From a virus (lineage: Duplodnaviria; Heunggongvirae; Uroviricota; Caudoviricetes), in IMG/VR virus record IMGVR_UViG_2734482541_000012: 5,243 nt of DNA; one strand, written 5' to 3'. Numbering within the stretch: the stretch's first letter is position 1; each line of letters starts with the position of its first letter. Below are positions 1 to 5,243 of this stretch, piece by piece. The notes under the pieces were generated by a model. That model was not told the origin of the DNA and did no database searches. It worked only from the letters and a program-made list of their open reading frames with translations. Position numbers and translations under genes: made by a program.

Positions 1-675
1 CATCATGAGACGACACGCCTCACTCAGTCAGCCCAGGTGGTGCTCTGGGAAATCGATCTGACAGAGGTCGGTGGAGAACGTTATTTTTTCTGTAATGAGC
101 AGAACGAAAAAGGTGAGCCGGTCACCTGGCAGGGGCGACAGTATCAGCCGTATCCCATTCAGGGGAGTGGTTTTGAACTGAATGGCAAAGGCACCAGTAC
201 GCGCCCCACGCTGACGGTTTCTAACCTGTACGGTATGGTCACCGGAATGGCGGAAGATCTGCAGAGTCTGGTCGGCGGAACGGTGGTCCGGCGTAAGGTT
301 TACGCCCGTTTTCTGGATGCGGTGAACTTCGTCAACGGAAACAGTGACGCCGATCCGGAGCAGGAGGTGATCAGCCGCTGGCGCATTGAGCAGTGCAGCG
401 AACTGAGCGCGGTGAGTGCCTCTTTTGTACTGTCCACGCCGACGGAAACAGATGGCGCTGTTTTTCCGGGACGTATCATGCTGGCCAACACCTGCACCTG
501 GACCTATCGCGGCGATGAGTGCGGTTATCACGGTCCGGCGGTCGCGGATGAATATGACCAGCCAACGTCCGATATCACGAAGGATAAATGCAGCAAATGC
601 CTGAGTGGCTGTAAGTTTCGCAATAACGTCGGCAACTTTGGCGGCTTCCTTTCCATTAACAAACTTTCGCAGTAA
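1..675 (+). CDS. L: Tail tip protein L (lambda gpL-like), 5'-partial; start codon lies upstream of the window
   Basis: Frame 1 is open from base 1 to TAA at 673-675. Translation (HHETTRLTQSAQVVLWEIDLTEVGGERYFFCNEQNEKGEPVTWQGRQYQPYPIQGSGFELNGKG...KCSKCLSGCKFRNNVGNFGGFLSINKLSQ) closely matches lambda gpL as I recall it. The GTG at 37 picked by the ORF track is internal; there is no in-frame stop upstream, so the gene continues 5' of the window. Cys codons at 493, 520, 589, 598 and 610. Confidence 0.9.
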   Translation, partial: HHETTRLTQSAQVVLWEIDLTEVGGERYFFCNEQNEKGEPVTWQGRQYQPYPIQGSGFELNGKGTSTRPTLTVSNLYGMVTGMAEDLQSLVGGTVVRRKVYARFLDAVNFVNGNSDADPEQEVISRWRIEQCSELSAVSASFVLSTPTETDGAVFPGRIMLANTCTWTYRGDECGYHGPAVADEYDQPTSDITKDKCSKCLSGCKFRNNVGNFGGFLSINKLSQ

Positions 676-679
676 TCCC

Positions 680-1694
680 ATGACAGAGACAGAATCAGCG
701 ATTCTGGCGCACGCCCGGCGATGTGCGCCAGCGGAGTCGTGCGGCTTCGTGGTGAGAACGCCGGAGGGGGAAAGATATTTTCCCTGCGTGAATATTTCCG
801 GTGAGCCGGAGGATTATTTCCGGATGGCTCCGGAGGACTGGCTGCAGGCAGAAATGCAGGGTGAGATTGTGGCGCTGGTCCACAGCCACCCCGGTGGTCT
901 GCCCTGGCTGAGTGAGGCTGACCGGCGGCTGCAGGTGCAGAGTGATTTGCCGTGGTTGCTGGTCTGCCGGGGGGCGATTCATAAGTTCCGCTGTGTGCCG
1001 CATCTCACCGGGCGGCGCTTTGAGCACGGGGTGACGGACTGTTACACGCTGTTCCGGGATGCTTATCATCTGGCGGGGATTGAGATGCCGAATTTTCATC
1101 GCGGGGATGACTGGTGGCGTCACGGTCAGAATCTCTATCTGGATAATCTGGAGGCCACAGGGCTGTATCAGGTGCCGTTGTCATCAGCACAACCGGGCGA
1201 TGTGCTGCTGTGCTGTTTTGGTTCATCGGTGCCGAATCATGCCGCCATTTACTGTGGTGACGGCGAGCTGCTGCACCATATTCCNNNNNNNNNNNNNNNN
1301 NNNNNNNNNNNNNNNNNNNNNNNNNNNNNNNNNNNNNNNNNNNNNNNNNNNTGAGATGCCGGATTTTCATCGCGGGGATGACTGGTGGCGTCACGGTCAG
1401 AATCTCTATCTGGATAATCTGGAGGCCACAGGGCTGTATCAGGTGCCGTTGTCAGCGGCGCAGCCGGGCGATGTGCTGCTGTGCTGTTTTGGTTCATCGG
1501 TGCCGAATCATGCCGCCATTTACTGTGGTGACGGCGAGCTGCTGCACCATATTCCTGAACAACTGAGCAAACGAGAGAGGTATACCGACAAATGGCAGCG
1601 ACGCACACACTCCCTCTGGCGTCACCGGGCATGGCACGCATCTGCCTTTACGGGGATTTGCAACGATTTGGCCGCCGCATCGACCTTCGTGTGA
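680..1694 (+). CDS. K: Tail assembly protein K (lambda gpK-like; JAB/MPN metallopeptidase N-terminal domain plus NlpC/P60 C-terminal domain); interrupted by an N-gap with duplicated flanks, so the true length is probably ~248 codons
   Basis: ATG at 680-682, 4 nt after the L stop. Translation MTETESAILAHARRCAPAESCGFVV...ALVHSHPGGLPWLSEADRR contains a JAMM motif H-S-H-x7-S-xx-D (nt 881-922) and an upstream E-x-C-G element. A papain-like Cys sits in GVTDCYTLFRDAYH (Cys codon 1040-1042) with downstream NHAAIYCGDGELLHH. The ORF enters the N-run at 1285 in frame 2 and resumes after the duplicated segment in frame 0, ending at TGA 1692-1694. Joining 680..1284 to 1556..1694 gives one continuous ~248-aa protein. 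Confidence 0.85.
1081..1284 (+). repeat. Direct repeat copy 1 (204 nt), immediately upstream of the N-gap, inside K
   Basis: Aligns base for base with 1352..1555 at an offset of 271 nt. Five mismatches, at copy-1 positions 1091, 1184, 1186, 1189 and 1192. Confidence 0.95.
1285..1351. other. Run of 67 N (assembly or scaffold gap, or masked sequence) inside K
   Basis: Directly visible as unbroken N characters; flanked by the duplicated 204-nt segments. Confidence 0.99.
1352..1555 (+). repeat. Direct repeat copy 2 (204 nt), immediately downstream of the N-gap, inside K
   Basis: Near-identical to 1081..1284. Differences give N to D (aat/gat) and SSAQ to SAAQ (tcatcagcacaa versus tcagcggcgcag) in the encoded peptide. 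Confidence 0.95.
1574..1580 (+). promoter_or_regulatory. Shine-Dalgarno-like AGAGAGG for I (internal to K)
   Basis: Purine-rich element 11 nt upstream of the I ATG at 1592. It sits inside the K coding sequence, consistent with overlapping-gene translation initiation. Confidence 0.4.
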
Positions 1695-2263
1695 AAACGG
1701 GTGCCGAAGCCATCCGGGCGATGGCCACACAGCTCCCTGCGTTTCGTCAGAAGCTGAGCGACGGCTGGTATCAGGTGCGTATTGCCGGGCAGGATGTTAG
1801 CACGTCCGGATTAACGGCACAGTTACATGAGGCTCTGCCTGACGGCGCTGTGATTCATATTGTTCCCAGAGTCGCCGGGGCCAAGTCAGGTGGTGTATTC
1901 CAGATTGTCCTGGGAGCAGCCGCCATTGCCGGATCATTCTTTACCGCCGGAGCCACCCTTGCAGCATGGGGGGCTGCCATTGGTGCCGGTGGTATGACCG
2001 GCATTCTGTTTTCTCTCGGTGCCAGTATGGTGCTCGGCGGTGTGGCTCAGATGCTGGCACCGAAAGCCAGAACTCCCCGCACACAGACAACGGATAACGG
2101 TAAGCAGAACACCTATTTCTCCTCACTGGATAACATGGTTGCCCAGGGCAATGTTATGCCTGTTCTGTATGGTGAAATGCGCGTGGGGTCACGTGTGGTA
2201 TCTCAGGAGATCAGCACGGCAGACGAAGGGGACGGTGGTCAGGTTGTGGTGATTGGTCGCTGA
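1592..2263 (+). CDS. I: Tail assembly protein I (lambda gpI-like)
   Basis: Complete 223-aa ORF, ATG 1592-1594 to TGA 2261-2263. Translation MAATHTLPLASPGMARICLYGDLQRFGRRIDLRVKTGAEAIRAMATQLPAFRQKLSDGWYQVRIAG... matches lambda gpI as I recall it, including the same length. A purine-rich Shine-Dalgarno-like AGAGAGG lies at 1574-1580. The gene overlaps the 3' end of K by 103 nt in a different frame. Confidence 0.9.
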   Translation: MAATHTLPLASPGMARICLYGDLQRFGRRIDLRVKTGAEAIRAMATQLPAFRQKLSDGWYQVRIAGQDVSTSGLTAQLHEALPDGAVIHIVPRVAGAKSGGVFQIVLGAAAIAGSFFTAGATLAAWGAAIGAGGMTGILFSLGASMVLGGVAQMLAPKARTPRTQTTDNGKQNTYFSSLDNMVAQGNVMPVLYGEMRVGSRVVSQEISTADEGDGGQVVVIGR

Positions 2264-2285
2264 TGCAAAATGTTTTATGTGAAAT

Positions 2286-2310
2286 CGCCTCCGGGCGGTT
2301 TTATCGTTTA
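2286..2310 (+). terminator. Weak hairpin followed by a T-rich tract in the I-J intergenic region (possible attenuator or RNA structure; not a convincing intrinsic terminator)
   Basis: CGCC (2286-2289) can pair with GGCG (2294-2297) around a TCCG loop, followed by TTTTATCGTTTA. The stem is only 4 bp, so stability is doubtful. Confidence 0.2.
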
Positions 2311-2311
2311 T

Positions 2312-2315
2312 GGAG
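2312..2315 (+). promoter_or_regulatory. Shine-Dalgarno-like GGAG for J
   Basis: GGAG lies 8 nt upstream of the J ATG at 2324. Confidence 0.55.
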
Positions 2316-2323
2316 CATGACGA

Positions 2324-5243
2324 ATGGGTAAAGGCAGCAGTAAGGGGCATACCCCGCGCGAAGCGAAGGACAACCTGAAGTCCACGCAGCTGCTGAGTGT
2401 GATCGATGCCATCAGCGAAGGGCCGGTTGAAGGTCCGGTGGATGGATTAAAAAGCGTGCTGCTGAACAGTACGCCGGTGCTGGACAGTGAGGGGAATACC
2501 AACATCTCCGGCGTCACGGTGGTGTTCCGGGCAGGTGAGCAGGAGCAGTCACCGCCGGAGGGATTTGAATCCTCCGGCTCCGAGACGGTGCTGGGTACGG
2601 AAGTGAAATATGACACGCCGATCACCCGGACCATCACGTCGGCAAACATTGACCGACTGCGTTTTACCTTCGGTGTACAGGCACTGGTGGAAACCACCTC
2701 AAAGGGTGACCGGAATCCGTCGGAAGTCCGCCTGCTGGTTCAGATACAGCGTAACGGTGGCTGGGTGACGGAAAAAGACATCACCATTAAGGGCAAAACC
2801 ACCTCGCAGTATCTGGCCTCGGTGGTGGTGGATAACCTGCCGCCGCGCCCGTTTAATATCCGGATGCGCAGAATGACGCCGGACAGCACCACNNNNNNNN
2901 NNNNNNNNNNNNNNNNNNNNNNNNNNGTCATACACCGAAATCATCGATGTGAAACAGTGCTACCCGAACACGGCACTGGTCGGCGTACAGGTGGATTCGG
3001 AGCAGTTCGGCAGCCAGCAGGTGAGCCGTAATTATCATCTTCGCGGGCGCATTCTGCAGGTGCCGTCGAACTATAATCCGCAGACGCGGCAATACAGCGG
3101 TATCTGGGACGGAACGTTAAAACCGGCATACAGCAACAACATGGCCTGGTGTCTGTGGGATATGCTGACCCATCCGCGCTATGGCATGGGGAAACGTCTT
3201 GGTGCGGCAGATGTGGATAAATGGGCGCTGTATGTCATCGGCCAGTACTGTGACCAGTCGGTGCCGGACGGCTTTGGCAGCACGGAGCCGCGCATCACCT
3301 GTAATGCCTGGCTGACCACACAGCGCAAGGCGTGGGATGTGCTCAGTGATTTCTGCTCGGCGATGCGCTGTATGCCGGTATGGAACGGGCAGACGCTGAC
3401 GTTCGTGCAGGACCGACAGTCGGATAAGGTGTGGGCCTATAACCGCAGTAATGTGGTGATGCCGGATGATGGCGCGCCGTTCCGCTACAGTTTCAGCGCC
3501 CTGAAAGACCGCCATAATGCCGTTGAGGTGAACTGGATTGACCCGGATAACGGCTGGGAGACGGCGACAGAGCTTGTGGAGGATACGCAGGCCATTGTCC
3601 GTTACGGTCGTAACGTCACGAAGATGGATGCCTTTGGCTGTACCAGCCGGGGGCAGGCACACCGCGCCGGGCTGTGGCTGATTAAAACGGAACTGCTGGA
3701 GACGCAGACCGTGGATTTCAGCGTGGGTGCTGAAGGGCTTCGTCATGTACCGGGCGATGTCATTGAAATCTGCGATGATGACTATGCCGGTATCCGCACC
3801 GGCGGGCGCGTGCTGGCGGTGAACAGCCAGACCCGGACGCTGACGCTCGACCGTGAAATCACGCTGCCATCCTCCGGCACCACGCTGATAAGCCTGGTTG
3901 ACGGGCAGGGGAATCCGGTCAGCGTGGAGGTCCAGTCCGTCACCGACGGCGTGAAGGTAAAAGTGAGCCGTGTTCCTGACGGTGTTGCTGAATACAGCGT
4001 GTGGGGGCTGAAGCTGCCGACGCTGCACCAGCGATTGTTCCGCTGCGTGAGTATCCGTGAGAACGACGACGGCACGTATGCCATCACCGCCGTGCAGCAT
4101 GTGCCGGAAAAAGAAGCCATCGTGGATAACGGGGCGCACTTTGACGGCGACCAGAGCGGCACGGTGAATGGTGTCACGCCGCCAGCGGTGCAGCACCTGA
4201 CTGCCGAAGTCACCGCAGACAGCGGGGAATATCAGGTGCTGGCGCGCTGGGACACGCCGAAGGTGGTGAAGGGCGTGAGCTTCCTGCTCCGTCTGACCGT
4301 AACAGCGGATGACGGCAGTGAGCGGCTGGTCAGCACGGCCCGGACGACGGAAACCACTTACCGCTTCACACAACTGGCGCTGGGGAACTACAGGCTGACA
4401 GTCCGGGCAGTAAATGCGTGGGGGCAGCAGGGCGATCCGGCGTCGGTATCGTTCCGGATTGCCGCACCGGCAGCGCTGTCGCGGATTGAGCTGACGCCGG
4501 GCTATTTTCAGATAACCGCCACGCCGCATCTTGCGGTTTATGATCCGACGGTACAGTTTGAGTTCTGGTTCTCGGAAAAGCGGATTGCGGATATCAGGCA
4601 GGTTGAAACCACAGCACGCTATCTTGGCACGGCGCTGTACTGGATAGCCGCCAGTATCAATATCAAACCGGGCCATGATTATTACTTTTATATCCGCAGT
4701 GTGAACACCGTTGGCAAATCGGCATTCGTGGAGGCTGTTGGTCAGCCGAGTGATGATGCATCCGGTTATCTGGATTTTTTCAAAGGCGAGATAGGGAAAA
4801 CCCATCTGGCTCAGGAGCTGTGGACGCAGATTGATAACGGTCAGCTTGCGCCTGACCTGGCTGAAATCAGGACGTCCATTACGGATGTCAGCAATGAAAT
4901 CACGCAGACCGTCAATAAGAAACTGGAAGACCAGAGTGCGGCAATTCAGCAGATACAGAAGGTTCAGGTTGATACAAATAATAACCTGAACAGCATGTGG
5001 GCTGTGAAGCTGCAGCAGATGCAGGACGGACGCCTTTATATCGCGGGTATTGGTGCCGGTATTGAGAACACCCCTGACGGCATGCAGAGTCAGGTGCTGC
5101 TGGCGGCGGACAGGATTGCGATGGTTAATCCTGCGAATGGCAACACAAAACCGATGTTTGTTGGTCAGGGCGATCAGATATTCATGAACGACGTGTTCCT
5201 GAAACGCCTGACGGCCCCCACCATTACCAGCGGTGGAAATCCA
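2324..5243 (+). CDS. J: Central tail fibre / host specificity protein J (lambda gpJ-like), 3'-partial; contains an internal N-gap at 2893..2926
   Basis: ATG 2324-2326 preceded by GGAG at 2312-2315. N-terminus [75 protein letters not shown]... matches lambda gpJ as I recall it. After the gap the frame changes from 2 to 0 and then reads without a stop to the last base (...[21 protein letters not shown]), which I checked codon by codon. The C-terminal receptor-binding part lies beyond the window. Confidence 0.93.
2893..2926. other. Run of 34 N (assembly gap or masked sequence) inside J
   Basis: Directly visible. The J reading frame is frame 2 before the run and frame 0 after it, so the N count is a placeholder, not the true length. 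Confidence 0.99.

What the first reader, a model, noticed from the sequence alone, without database searches (positions are those of the whole stretch)
680..2263. K-I gene pair: JAB/MPN plus NlpC/P60 double peptidase overlapping a possible ubiquitin-like partner
K carries an intact JAMM zinc-peptidase motif (HSHPGGLPWLSEAD, HxHx7SxxD, nt 881-922, with an upstream E-x-C-G element) followed by a papain-like NlpC/P60 domain (Cys in DCYTLF, His residues in NHAAIYCGDGELLHH). The overlapping downstream gene I encodes a small protein whose N-terminal ~90 residues (ICLYGDLQRFGRRIDLRVKTGAEAIRAM...VIHIVPRVAGAKSGG) are a candidate beta-grasp ubiquitin-like domain ending near a GG, followed by a Gly/Ala-rich hydrophobic tail. 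Comparative-genomics literature, as I recall it, proposes that this lambda K/I arrangement is a prokaryotic ubiquitin-like/deubiquitinase-like pair, but the substrate and the role of either peptidase activity in tail-tip assembly remain poorly defined. Both catalytic motifs are intact here, so both activities are likely under selection.
Basis: partly seen in the sequence, partly recalled or inferred. Interest (0 to 1): 0.45.

Follow-up and report, generated by a model that had tools for sequence, protein, structure and literature searches.

The report
Lambda-type tail genes K and I
This is the well-known K-I tail-tip assembly gene pair of a lambda-like E. coli prophage (a two-peptidase enzyme next to a plug protein that carries a ubiquitin-like cap); the idea that K trims the cap off I was published in 2006, and gene K is broken here by an assembly gap.

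Summary

The window is about 96% identical to phage 21 and lambda-like phages and reads L-K-I-J.

A 67-N gap (1285-1351) lies between two copies of a 204-nt segment that are 199/204 identical. The offset of 271 nt breaks the frame. This is a scaffolding artefact; collapsing it restores the usual 247-aa K.

The catalytic residues of both K peptidases are invariant in homologues only 27-41% identical. In I, the conserved C-terminal glycine of the beta-grasp is G96, in the motif P-x-x-x-G-[A/S], not the GG at 100-101.

Recent cryo-EM and mass-spectrometry work shows only the C-terminal part of I in virions. It also shows removal of the N-terminal domain in the F-pyocin homologue. The protease is still unidentified.

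Verdict: real, correctly read, already known, low interest.

The parts
1..675 (+). 3' part of tail-tip gene L (its start lies upstream of the window)
   Evidence: Pfam Phage_tail_L E 3.5e-101; annotated as the lambda L homologue in phage 21
680..1284 (+). K, first piece: codons 1-201, holding the whole JAB domain (aa 4-98, nt 689-973) and most of the NlpC/P60 domain (from aa 111, nt 1010)
734..736 (+). JAMM general-base Glu (E19 of E-S-C-G)
   Evidence: E in 50/50 aligned homologues at 27-41% identity
881..922 (+). JAMM zinc motif H68-S-H70-x7-S78-x2-D81
   Evidence: H70, S78 and D81 invariant in all 52 sequences, H68 in 51 with one gap
1040..1042 (+). NlpC/P60 catalytic Cys121 (DCYTLF)
   Evidence: invariant in 52/52
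1238..1276 (+). NlpC/P60 His187 and His199 (copy 1; the same codons recur at 1509-1547 in the duplicate)
   Evidence: H187 52/52, H199 51/52
1285..1351 (.). Run of 67 N: scaffold gap inside K
1352..1555 (+). Second copy of nt 1081-1284 (199/204 identical; a different K allele): the overlapping end of a second contig, not a real duplication
   Evidence: 80/80 related viral loci carry K as one uninterrupted 738-741-nt match
1556..1694 (+). K, last piece (codons 202-247 and stop); the NlpC/P60 domain ends near nt 1622
1592..2263 (+). Gene I (223 aa), overlapping K by 103 nt in the -1 frame
   Evidence: 98% identical to lambda gpI of PDB 8IYK
1631..1882 (+). MoaD/ThiS-like beta-grasp (Ubl) domain of I, aa 14-97, ending in P92-R-V-A-G96-A97
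1889..2056 (+). GG (aa 100-101) followed by two Gly/Ala-rich hydrophobic helices (aa 100-129 and 136-155)
   Evidence: helices H1 and H2 of gpI in PMC11101478
2066..2260 (+). C-terminal plug domain of I (aa 159-223). In lambda virions it forms the trimer that closes the tail-tip lumen and holds the C-terminus of gpH
   Evidence: PMC11101478 and PMC10721106; PDB 8IYK and 9E7M
2324..5243 (+). 5' part of central tail fibre gene J, interrupted by N-run 2893-2926 (34 N where lambda has 30 nt, which shifts the frame)

Best explanation
The region is the K-I pair of the tail-tip module (L-K-I-J) of a lambdoid E. coli prophage, read from a draft assembly in which two overlapping contig ends were joined by Ns inside K.

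I has three parts: a MoaD/ThiS-type ubiquitin-like cap (aa 14-97), two hydrophobic helices, and a C-terminal plug domain. A trimer of the plug domain seals the tail tip in the virion. K is a non-virion assembly enzyme with a minimal JAMM zinc peptidase and an NlpC/P60 cysteine peptidase.

Most likely mechanism (inferred, not shown): the JAB domain of K recognises the beta-grasp of I as a deubiquitinase or desampylase recognises its modifier. It then cuts the chain just after the invariant G96-[A/S]97, or within the next few residues up to G101. This releases the cap once the C-terminal part of I is lodged in the J/L cone, so that the tip can go on to bind tape measure and tube.

Shown here: domain identities, folds, conservation of catalytic residues, and synteny. 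[quoted passage not shown] Inferred: that K is the protease, that the JAB domain rather than the NlpC/P60 domain makes the cut, and the exact site.

I rate the identity of the genes and domains at about 0.97. The confidence value below refers to the mechanism.

For: Selection on catalysis: E19, H68, H70, S78, D81, C121 and H187 are unchanged in every one of 51 distinct homologues of 27-41% identity that aligns there, and H199 in 50 of 51. Linkage: K lies upstream of I in 72/72 viral loci that have upstream DNA, immediately upstream in 71 of them, and in 11/13 bacterial loci. Conserved P-x-x-x-G-[AS] at the end of the Ubl.

Virion data: gpI is resolved only from residue 101, 134 or 135 onward, and gpK was not detected. 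The single gpI peptide in the virion mass spectrometry covers 9.87% of the protein. Only the C-terminal tryptic peptide 202-223 fits that figure.

F-pyocin: the N-terminal region of PA0640 is absent from mature particles and present in stalled precursors, and deleting PA0639 (the gpK homologue) gives tubes without tips. The PA0639 homologue in L158 has intact JAMM and Cys/His motifs. The hypothesis was published by Iyer et al. 2006.
Against: No experiment links K to the cleavage. The F-pyocin preprint reports that PA0640 expressed alone in E. coli loses its N-terminal region to unknown host proteases, so K may not be needed. Missing cryo-EM density and a single MS peptide are also compatible with an attached but flexible domain. 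Two I homologues with a beta-grasp have no K within 3 kb upstream (L163, L168). The role of the second peptidase domain is unexplained.
Confidence: 0.45

Rival explanations
1. The N-terminal domain of I is removed, but by host proteases or by the NlpC/P60 domain of K rather than by the JAB domain. The beta-grasp is simply an unstable, disposable solubility cap for the hydrophobic helices.
For: Recombinant PA0640 alone in E. coli loses its N-terminal region to unknown host proteases. The NlpC/P60 triad is as strictly conserved as the JAMM motif.
Against: This does not explain why a JAMM peptidase, whose known partners are MoaD/SAMP/ubiquitin-type beta-grasps, is conserved next to such a domain down to 27% identity.
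Confidence: 0.2
2. The beta-grasp of I stays attached in the virion and is merely disordered. K's peptidases act on something else, for example the unexplained gpH to gpH* cleavage, or another tip protein.
For: Cryo-EM cannot distinguish absent from flexible. The protease for gpH is unknown.
Against: In the F-pyocin, peptides of the N-terminal region are seen in stalled precursors but not in mature particles. In lambda virions only the C-terminal peptide of gpI was detected, although the Ubl domain offers several ordinary tryptic peptides.
Confidence: 0.15
3. K's JAB domain is a counter-defence deconjugase that strips host Bil-type ubiquitin-like modifiers from the central tail fibre J.
Against: K is required for tail-tip formation in systems tested without any Bil system (lambda genetics, established knowledge). 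The tight linkage to I's own beta-grasp points to a substrate within the module. The two roles are not mutually exclusive.
Confidence: 0.1
4. K's NlpC/P60 domain is a peptidoglycan DL-endopeptidase used to cross the cell wall at infection.
For: The best NlpC/P60 fold matches are cell-wall endopeptidases (CwlO, MepS, LytE) and tail-associated hydrolases of diffocin and phi812. The lambda wall-cleaving enzyme is unidentified.
Against: gpK and PA0639 are not detected in virions or pyocin particles by mass spectrometry or cryo-EM. K is made in the cytoplasm, and its N-terminus (MTETESAILAHARR) does not look like a signal peptide, though I ran no predictor.
Confidence: 0.07

Closest known systems
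Bacteriophage lambda gpK / gpI (tail tip assembly proteins K and I; PDB 8IYK, 8XCG, 9E7M for gpI)
   Same: Same gene order L-K-I-J and the same 103-nt K/I overlap. I is 98% identical to lambda gpI. Collapsed K differs from common E. coli prophage alleles at 7-10 residues.
   Different: K is interrupted here by an N gap with a duplicated flank. The lambda RefSeq record lacks one base at position 14266 and annotates K as 199 aa without the JAMM Glu, whereas this window and phage 21 encode the full 247 aa.
TAPI/TAPK Ubl-JAB pair as defined by Iyer, Burroughs and Aravind 2006 (PMC1779556)
   Same: Exactly the architecture described: a ThiS/MoaD-like Ubl with a conserved C-terminal Gly, a Gly-rich linker and a C-terminal domain, next to a JAB + NlpC/P60 protein.
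   Different: The paper stated that I is not in the mature tail. Later cryo-EM shows that its C-terminal part is.
F-type pyocin PA0639 / PA0640 (P. aeruginosa)
   Same: Homologous pair. The PA0640 plug trimer is seen only from residue 127, its N-terminal domain is removed during maturation, and PA0639 is needed for the tip. The PA0639 homologue carries the same JAMM and Cys/His motifs.
   Different: The two genes are separated by about 55 nt instead of overlapping. PA0640 gives only an E 1.2e-17 match to I in the search against solved structures.
Archaeal and bacterial JAMM-modifier pairs (PfJAMM1 and its SAMP modifier, HvJAMM1 desampylase, Mec+/CysO)
   Same: A minimal JAMM domain paired with a MoaD/ThiS-type beta-grasp that ends in a small-residue tail. 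PfJAMM1 is K's best fold match and SAMP1/MoaD proteins are I's.
   Different: No E1-like activating enzyme and no conjugation step. The Ubl is made already fused to its target, so only a peptide-bond cut is needed. K scores far below the NCBIfam desampylase cut-off (29 versus 130 bits).

Membership tests
JAB/MPN+ (JAMM) metallopeptidase, Pfam Prok-JAB PF14464 | Profile match above the curated threshold | tested here: met
   52.9 bits versus cut-off 25, aa 4-98
JAB/MPN+ (JAMM) metallopeptidase, Pfam Prok-JAB PF14464 | Complete motif E-x(n)-H-[ST]-H-x7-S-x2-D | tested here: met
   E19, H68-S-H70, S78, D81; invariant in distant homologues
JAB/MPN+ (JAMM) metallopeptidase, Pfam Prok-JAB PF14464 | MPN fold | tested here: met
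JAB/MPN+ (JAMM) metallopeptidase, Pfam Prok-JAB PF14464 | Zn-dependent peptidase or isopeptidase activity | not testable with these tools
   No biochemical report found
NlpC/P60 (C40) papain-like peptidase, Pfam PF00877 | Profile match above the threshold, with a Cys-His-His triad at the canonical spacing | tested here: met
NlpC/P60 (C40) papain-like peptidase, Pfam PF00877 | Peptidoglycan endopeptidase activity | not testable with these tools
   Below the cut-off of NCBIfam TIGR02219, phage cell wall peptidase (23.7 versus 81.9 bits); K is absent from virions
Lambda_tail_I (PF06805) / TAPI ubiquitin-like domain | Profile match above the threshold | tested here: met
   95.1 bits versus cut-off 23.8, aa 14-97
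Lambda_tail_I (PF06805) / TAPI ubiquitin-like domain | Beta-grasp fold of the ThiS/MoaD type | tested here: met
Lambda_tail_I (PF06805) / TAPI ubiquitin-like domain | Conserved Gly at the C-terminal end of the beta-grasp | tested here: met
   G96 in 66/68 sequences, within P-x-x-x-G-[AS]; the GG at 100-101 is less conserved (29/68 and 59/68)
Ubiquitin-like conjugation system (modifier + E1/E2 + DUB) | An E1-like adenylating enzyme encoded with the modifier | tested here: not met
   The window holds only L, K, I and J; no E1/E2 in the module. The pair works like a modifier-DUB pair only for the cleavage step and is not a conjugation system.
Ubiquitin-like conjugation system (modifier + E1/E2 + DUB) | A free C-terminal Gly produced by processing, followed by conjugation | not testable with these tools
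   Cleavage is inferred only; there is no evidence of conjugation

The most novel reading that the evidence does not exclude
K is a dedicated two-headed maturase of the siphophage tail tip. Its JAB domain removes the MoaD-like cap of I at the invariant G96-[A/S]97 as an assembly checkpoint. This would be a virus-encoded, E1-free modifier-DUB pair. Its NlpC/P60 domain makes a second cut in a tail protein, and the still-unassigned gpH to gpH* cleavage in the glycine-rich region is the obvious candidate. The first half is a 2006 hypothesis that remains untested. The second half is my own speculation with no direct support.
Probability: 0.12. Interest if true: 0.6.

Novelty: already known. Interest (0 to 1): 0.18.

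Why it matters
The function of lambda gpK is one of the few remaining gaps in the lambda tail assembly pathway. The K-I pair is also cited as a prokaryotic or viral antecedent of ubiquitin-DUB recognition. Structural work from 2023-2026 shows a truncated I in particles and names no protease, so the 2006 prediction can now be tested directly. That opportunity comes from the literature, not from this window. The window adds an ordinary, gap-damaged copy of a gene pair present in thousands of E. coli genomes.

Three points may be useful. The conserved candidate cleavage motif is P-x-x-x-G-[AS], not the GG. The MoaD-like fold argues against the published suggestion that the N-terminus of gpI is the wall-cleaving enzyme. 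And the F-pyocin K homologue keeps an intact JAMM site.

Tried and rejected
1. Real tandem duplication inside K: rejected. 80/80 related viral loci carry K as one uninterrupted match. Database K variants with in-frame internal repeats (P0271-P0275, P0285) are each a single-sequence cluster, with the repeat at a different place in each, as expected from mis-assembly of paralogous prophages. Here the copies flank an N-run, differ at 5 sites and are offset by 271 nt.

2. Programmed -1 frameshift producing a K-I fusion from the 103-nt overlap: rejected. There is no X XXY YYZ heptamer in the K frame of the overlap. The 28 database proteins that match both K and I join them at many different points, and those in the listed searches are clusters of one to three sequences. 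Distant homologues overlap by only 4-20 nt or not at all.

3. P0163, a 2783-aa protein with 23 matches to I residues 10-63: a repetitive, satellite-like translation with no meaningful Pfam domain. Treated as a false positive.

4. A profile scan of viral contigs with the diverse I alignment failed because no block was conserved enough. Two single-protein scans found nothing.

I used P0277 (7 substitutions, none catalytic) instead.

6. NCBIfam gave only sub-threshold hits (desampylase; phage NlpC/P60), so I claim no membership of those equivalog families.

7. The terminator scan did not recover the hairpin between I and J that the phage 21 record annotates.

Full report
WHAT IS IN THE WINDOW. 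The 5243-nt window is about 96% identical over 98% of its length to phage 21, mEp460 and many lambda-like E. coli phages; 113 phage records cover at least 80% of it. In the phage 21 and lambda records the matching stretch is annotated L, K, I, J. Pfam agrees. Phage_tail_L matches nt 37-675 (E 3.5e-101). Prok-JAB plus NLPC_P60 match K. Lambda_tail_I matches I. FNIII-A_GpJ matches the start of J. The finding therefore concerns the tail-tip assembly genes K and I of a lambdoid prophage.

CHECK OF THE OBSERVATION. All quoted peptides are at the quoted coordinates. The JAMM motif HSHPGGLPWLSEAD is at nt 881-922, ESCG at 734-745, DCYTLF at 1037-1054 and NHAAIYCGDGELLHH at 1235-1279. I is at 1592-2263, 223 aa, with GG at residues 100-101.

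A run of 67 N (1285-1351) is flanked by two copies of a 204-nt segment (1081-1284 and 1352-1555). The copies are 199/204 identical and offset by 271 nt, which shifts the frame. Removing one copy and the Ns gives a 744-nt ORF of 247 aa.

In 80 of 80 related viral loci K is a single uninterrupted match of 738-741 nt. The phage records are 275 nt shorter than the window over the matched span, which equals 271 + 4. The 4 extra bases come from a second N-run in J (2893-2926), where 34 N stand in for 30 nt of lambda.

Three of the five differences between the copies fall in the codon that gives Ser or Ala at residue 169, and common prophage alleles carry either residue there. The simplest reading is that two contig ends, from different prophage copies or alleles, were scaffolded with Ns instead of being merged. 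Database K proteins with in-frame internal repeats (P0271-P0275, P0285) are each a single-sequence cluster with the repeat at a different place, which is the same kind of artefact.

CONSERVATION AND LINKAGE. A divergent I homologue (P0237) used as bait retrieved 75 viral loci. In all 72 with upstream DNA, a K homologue covering both domains lies upstream of I, and in 71 it is immediately upstream.

The 51 distinct K homologues are 27-41% identical to the window's K. At every aligned position they keep E19, H68, H70, S78, D81, D120, C121 and H187. H199 is kept in all but one of the 51. Some carry H-x-H-x9-S-x2-D instead of x7.

In I (68 sequences, median 38% identity) the invariant feature at the end of the beta-grasp is P92 (68/68), G96 (66/68) and A/S97 (64/68). 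G100 is present in only 29/68 and G101 in 59/68. From my own knowledge of MoaD, its C-terminus reads P-P-V-T-G-G, so G96-A97 would occupy the place of the modifier's terminal di-glycine.

WHAT IS KNOWN. The JAMM motif of lambda K was listed in 2003 with function unknown (PMC300881). Iyer, Burroughs and Aravind (2006, PMC1779556) described the ThiS/MoaD-like domain of tail assembly protein I, its linkage to K (JAB + NlpC/P60) and to J. They proposed that the JAB domain releases the Ubl by cutting at its C-terminal glycine. Hor et al. speculated that such DUB domains might instead counter the Bil defence system, which conjugates a Ubl to the central tail fibre.

Cryo-EM of lambda shows a trimer of gpI plugging the tip lumen and holding the C-terminus of gpH. 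It is resolved only from residue 101, 134 or 135 onward. gpK is absent from virions (PMC11101478, PMC10721106, PMC12617516).

The virion mass-spectrometry table of PMC10721106 lists one gpI peptide covering 9.87% of the protein. Only the C-terminal tryptic peptide 202-223 has the required 22 residues. None of the ordinary tryptic peptides of the Ubl domain was reported, while gpL, which has the same copy number, gave eight. This is weak but points the same way.

A 2026 preprint on the F-type pyocin (10.64898/2026.02.24.707460) reports three things. [quoted passage not shown] Deleting PA0639 (the gpK homologue) gives tubes without tips. The cleavage mechanism is unknown. The preprint also reports that PA0640 expressed alone in E. 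coli loses its N-terminus to host proteases. I fetched the Pseudomonas locus and found that the PA0639 homologue has E-C-C-G, HSHPDAPATPSMAD, DCW and NHAGIY...LLHH, so both active sites are intact.

HOW IT MOST LIKELY WORKS. Shown: the domains, the folds, selection on both catalytic centres, the tight K-I linkage, and the truncated form of I in particles. Inferred: K's JAB domain binds I's beta-grasp and cuts just after G96-[A/S]97, or within a few residues, once I's C-terminal part is in the J/L cone. This removes a cap that otherwise blocks the next assembly step. I put this at about 0.45.

The main rivals are as follows:
- Removal by host proteases or by the NlpC/P60 domain (0.2).
- No removal, with other substrates for K such as gpH (0.15).
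- A counter-defence deconjugase (0.1; not exclusive of the main model).
- A wall hydrolase role for the NlpC/P60 domain (0.07; disfavoured because K is not in particles).

MEMBERSHIP AND NOVELTY. K meets the sequence, motif and fold criteria of the JAB/MPN+ and NlpC/P60 families. I meets those of Lambda_tail_I and the ThiS/MoaD beta-grasp. Enzymatic activity is untested. The pair is not a ubiquitin-like conjugation system: no E1 or E2 is present, and the Ubl is made already fused to its partner. It resembles a modifier-DUB pair only in the predicted cleavage step.

Everything in the finding is already in the literature, and the locus is a common prophage module, so the novelty class is 'already known'. 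Interest is low (0.18). The open biochemical question is real and now easy to test, but this window contributes nothing specific to it.

Noticed in passing
window 1081-1555: A 67-N gap flanked by a 204-nt near-identical duplicate (5 mismatches) inside K. It is a scaffolding artefact joining two contig ends that carry different K alleles, and it shifts the frame by 271 nt.
   Followed up: yes
window 2893-2926: A second N-run (34 N) inside J replaces 30 nt of lambda sequence, so J is also frame-shifted as written. There is no flanking duplicate here.
   Followed up: yes
L002 (lambda NC_001416) locus 1133-1290, record position about 14266: The lambda reference lacks one base (GGAGGC-TATTTCC) relative to this window and phage 21. 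RefSeq K therefore starts at 14276 (199 aa, named C40 family peptidase) and lacks the first 48 residues, including the JAMM Glu. Many database entries of 199 aa with only PF00877 follow this annotation.
   Followed up: partly
window 1592-1633: Divergent I homologues begin at the residue aligned with M14 of this I, and one large database cluster (P0013, 5268 member sequences) is 210 aa long, the length expected for a start at M14. The true start of I may be the ATG at 1631, which would shorten the K/I overlap from 103 to 64 nt.
   Followed up: partly
database proteins P0271-P0275 and P0285; K-I chimeras such as P0286, P0304, P0017: Public E. coli assemblies contain many one-off K proteins with internal in-frame repeats, and K-I chimeras with many different junctions. 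These are most likely mis-assemblies, indel errors or decayed prophages. PHROG 28576 is built from such K-I fusions.
   Followed up: yes
window 957-959 (K residue 93): This K has Leu where the six closest database relatives have Trp (LPWLLVC versus LPWWLVC). The position varies in distant homologues, so the change is probably harmless.
   Followed up: partly
L163 and L168 (Achromobacter; Holophagaceae MAG): I homologues with a beta-grasp but no K homologue within 3 kb upstream. In L168 the gene follows a tape-measure-like ORF and the end-of-Ubl motif is V-A-A-G-G instead of G-[AS]-K.
   Followed up: no
L166 (Symbiopectobacterium MAG) 2004-2993: An L-K fusion ORF with a truncated JAB N-terminus and Tyr in place of the NlpC/P60 His (PNYAGVY). 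It looks like a decaying prophage in a symbiont genome.
   Followed up: no
window 2264-2323: The I-J intergenic region contains a short GC hairpin followed by TTTT (cgcctccgggcggtttt). Phage 21 annotates a terminator at the equivalent place, but the simple terminator scan did not call it.
   Followed up: partly
P0163: A 2783-aa repetitive protein gives 23 weak matches to I residues 10-63. It is a satellite-like translation and a false positive.
   Followed up: yes
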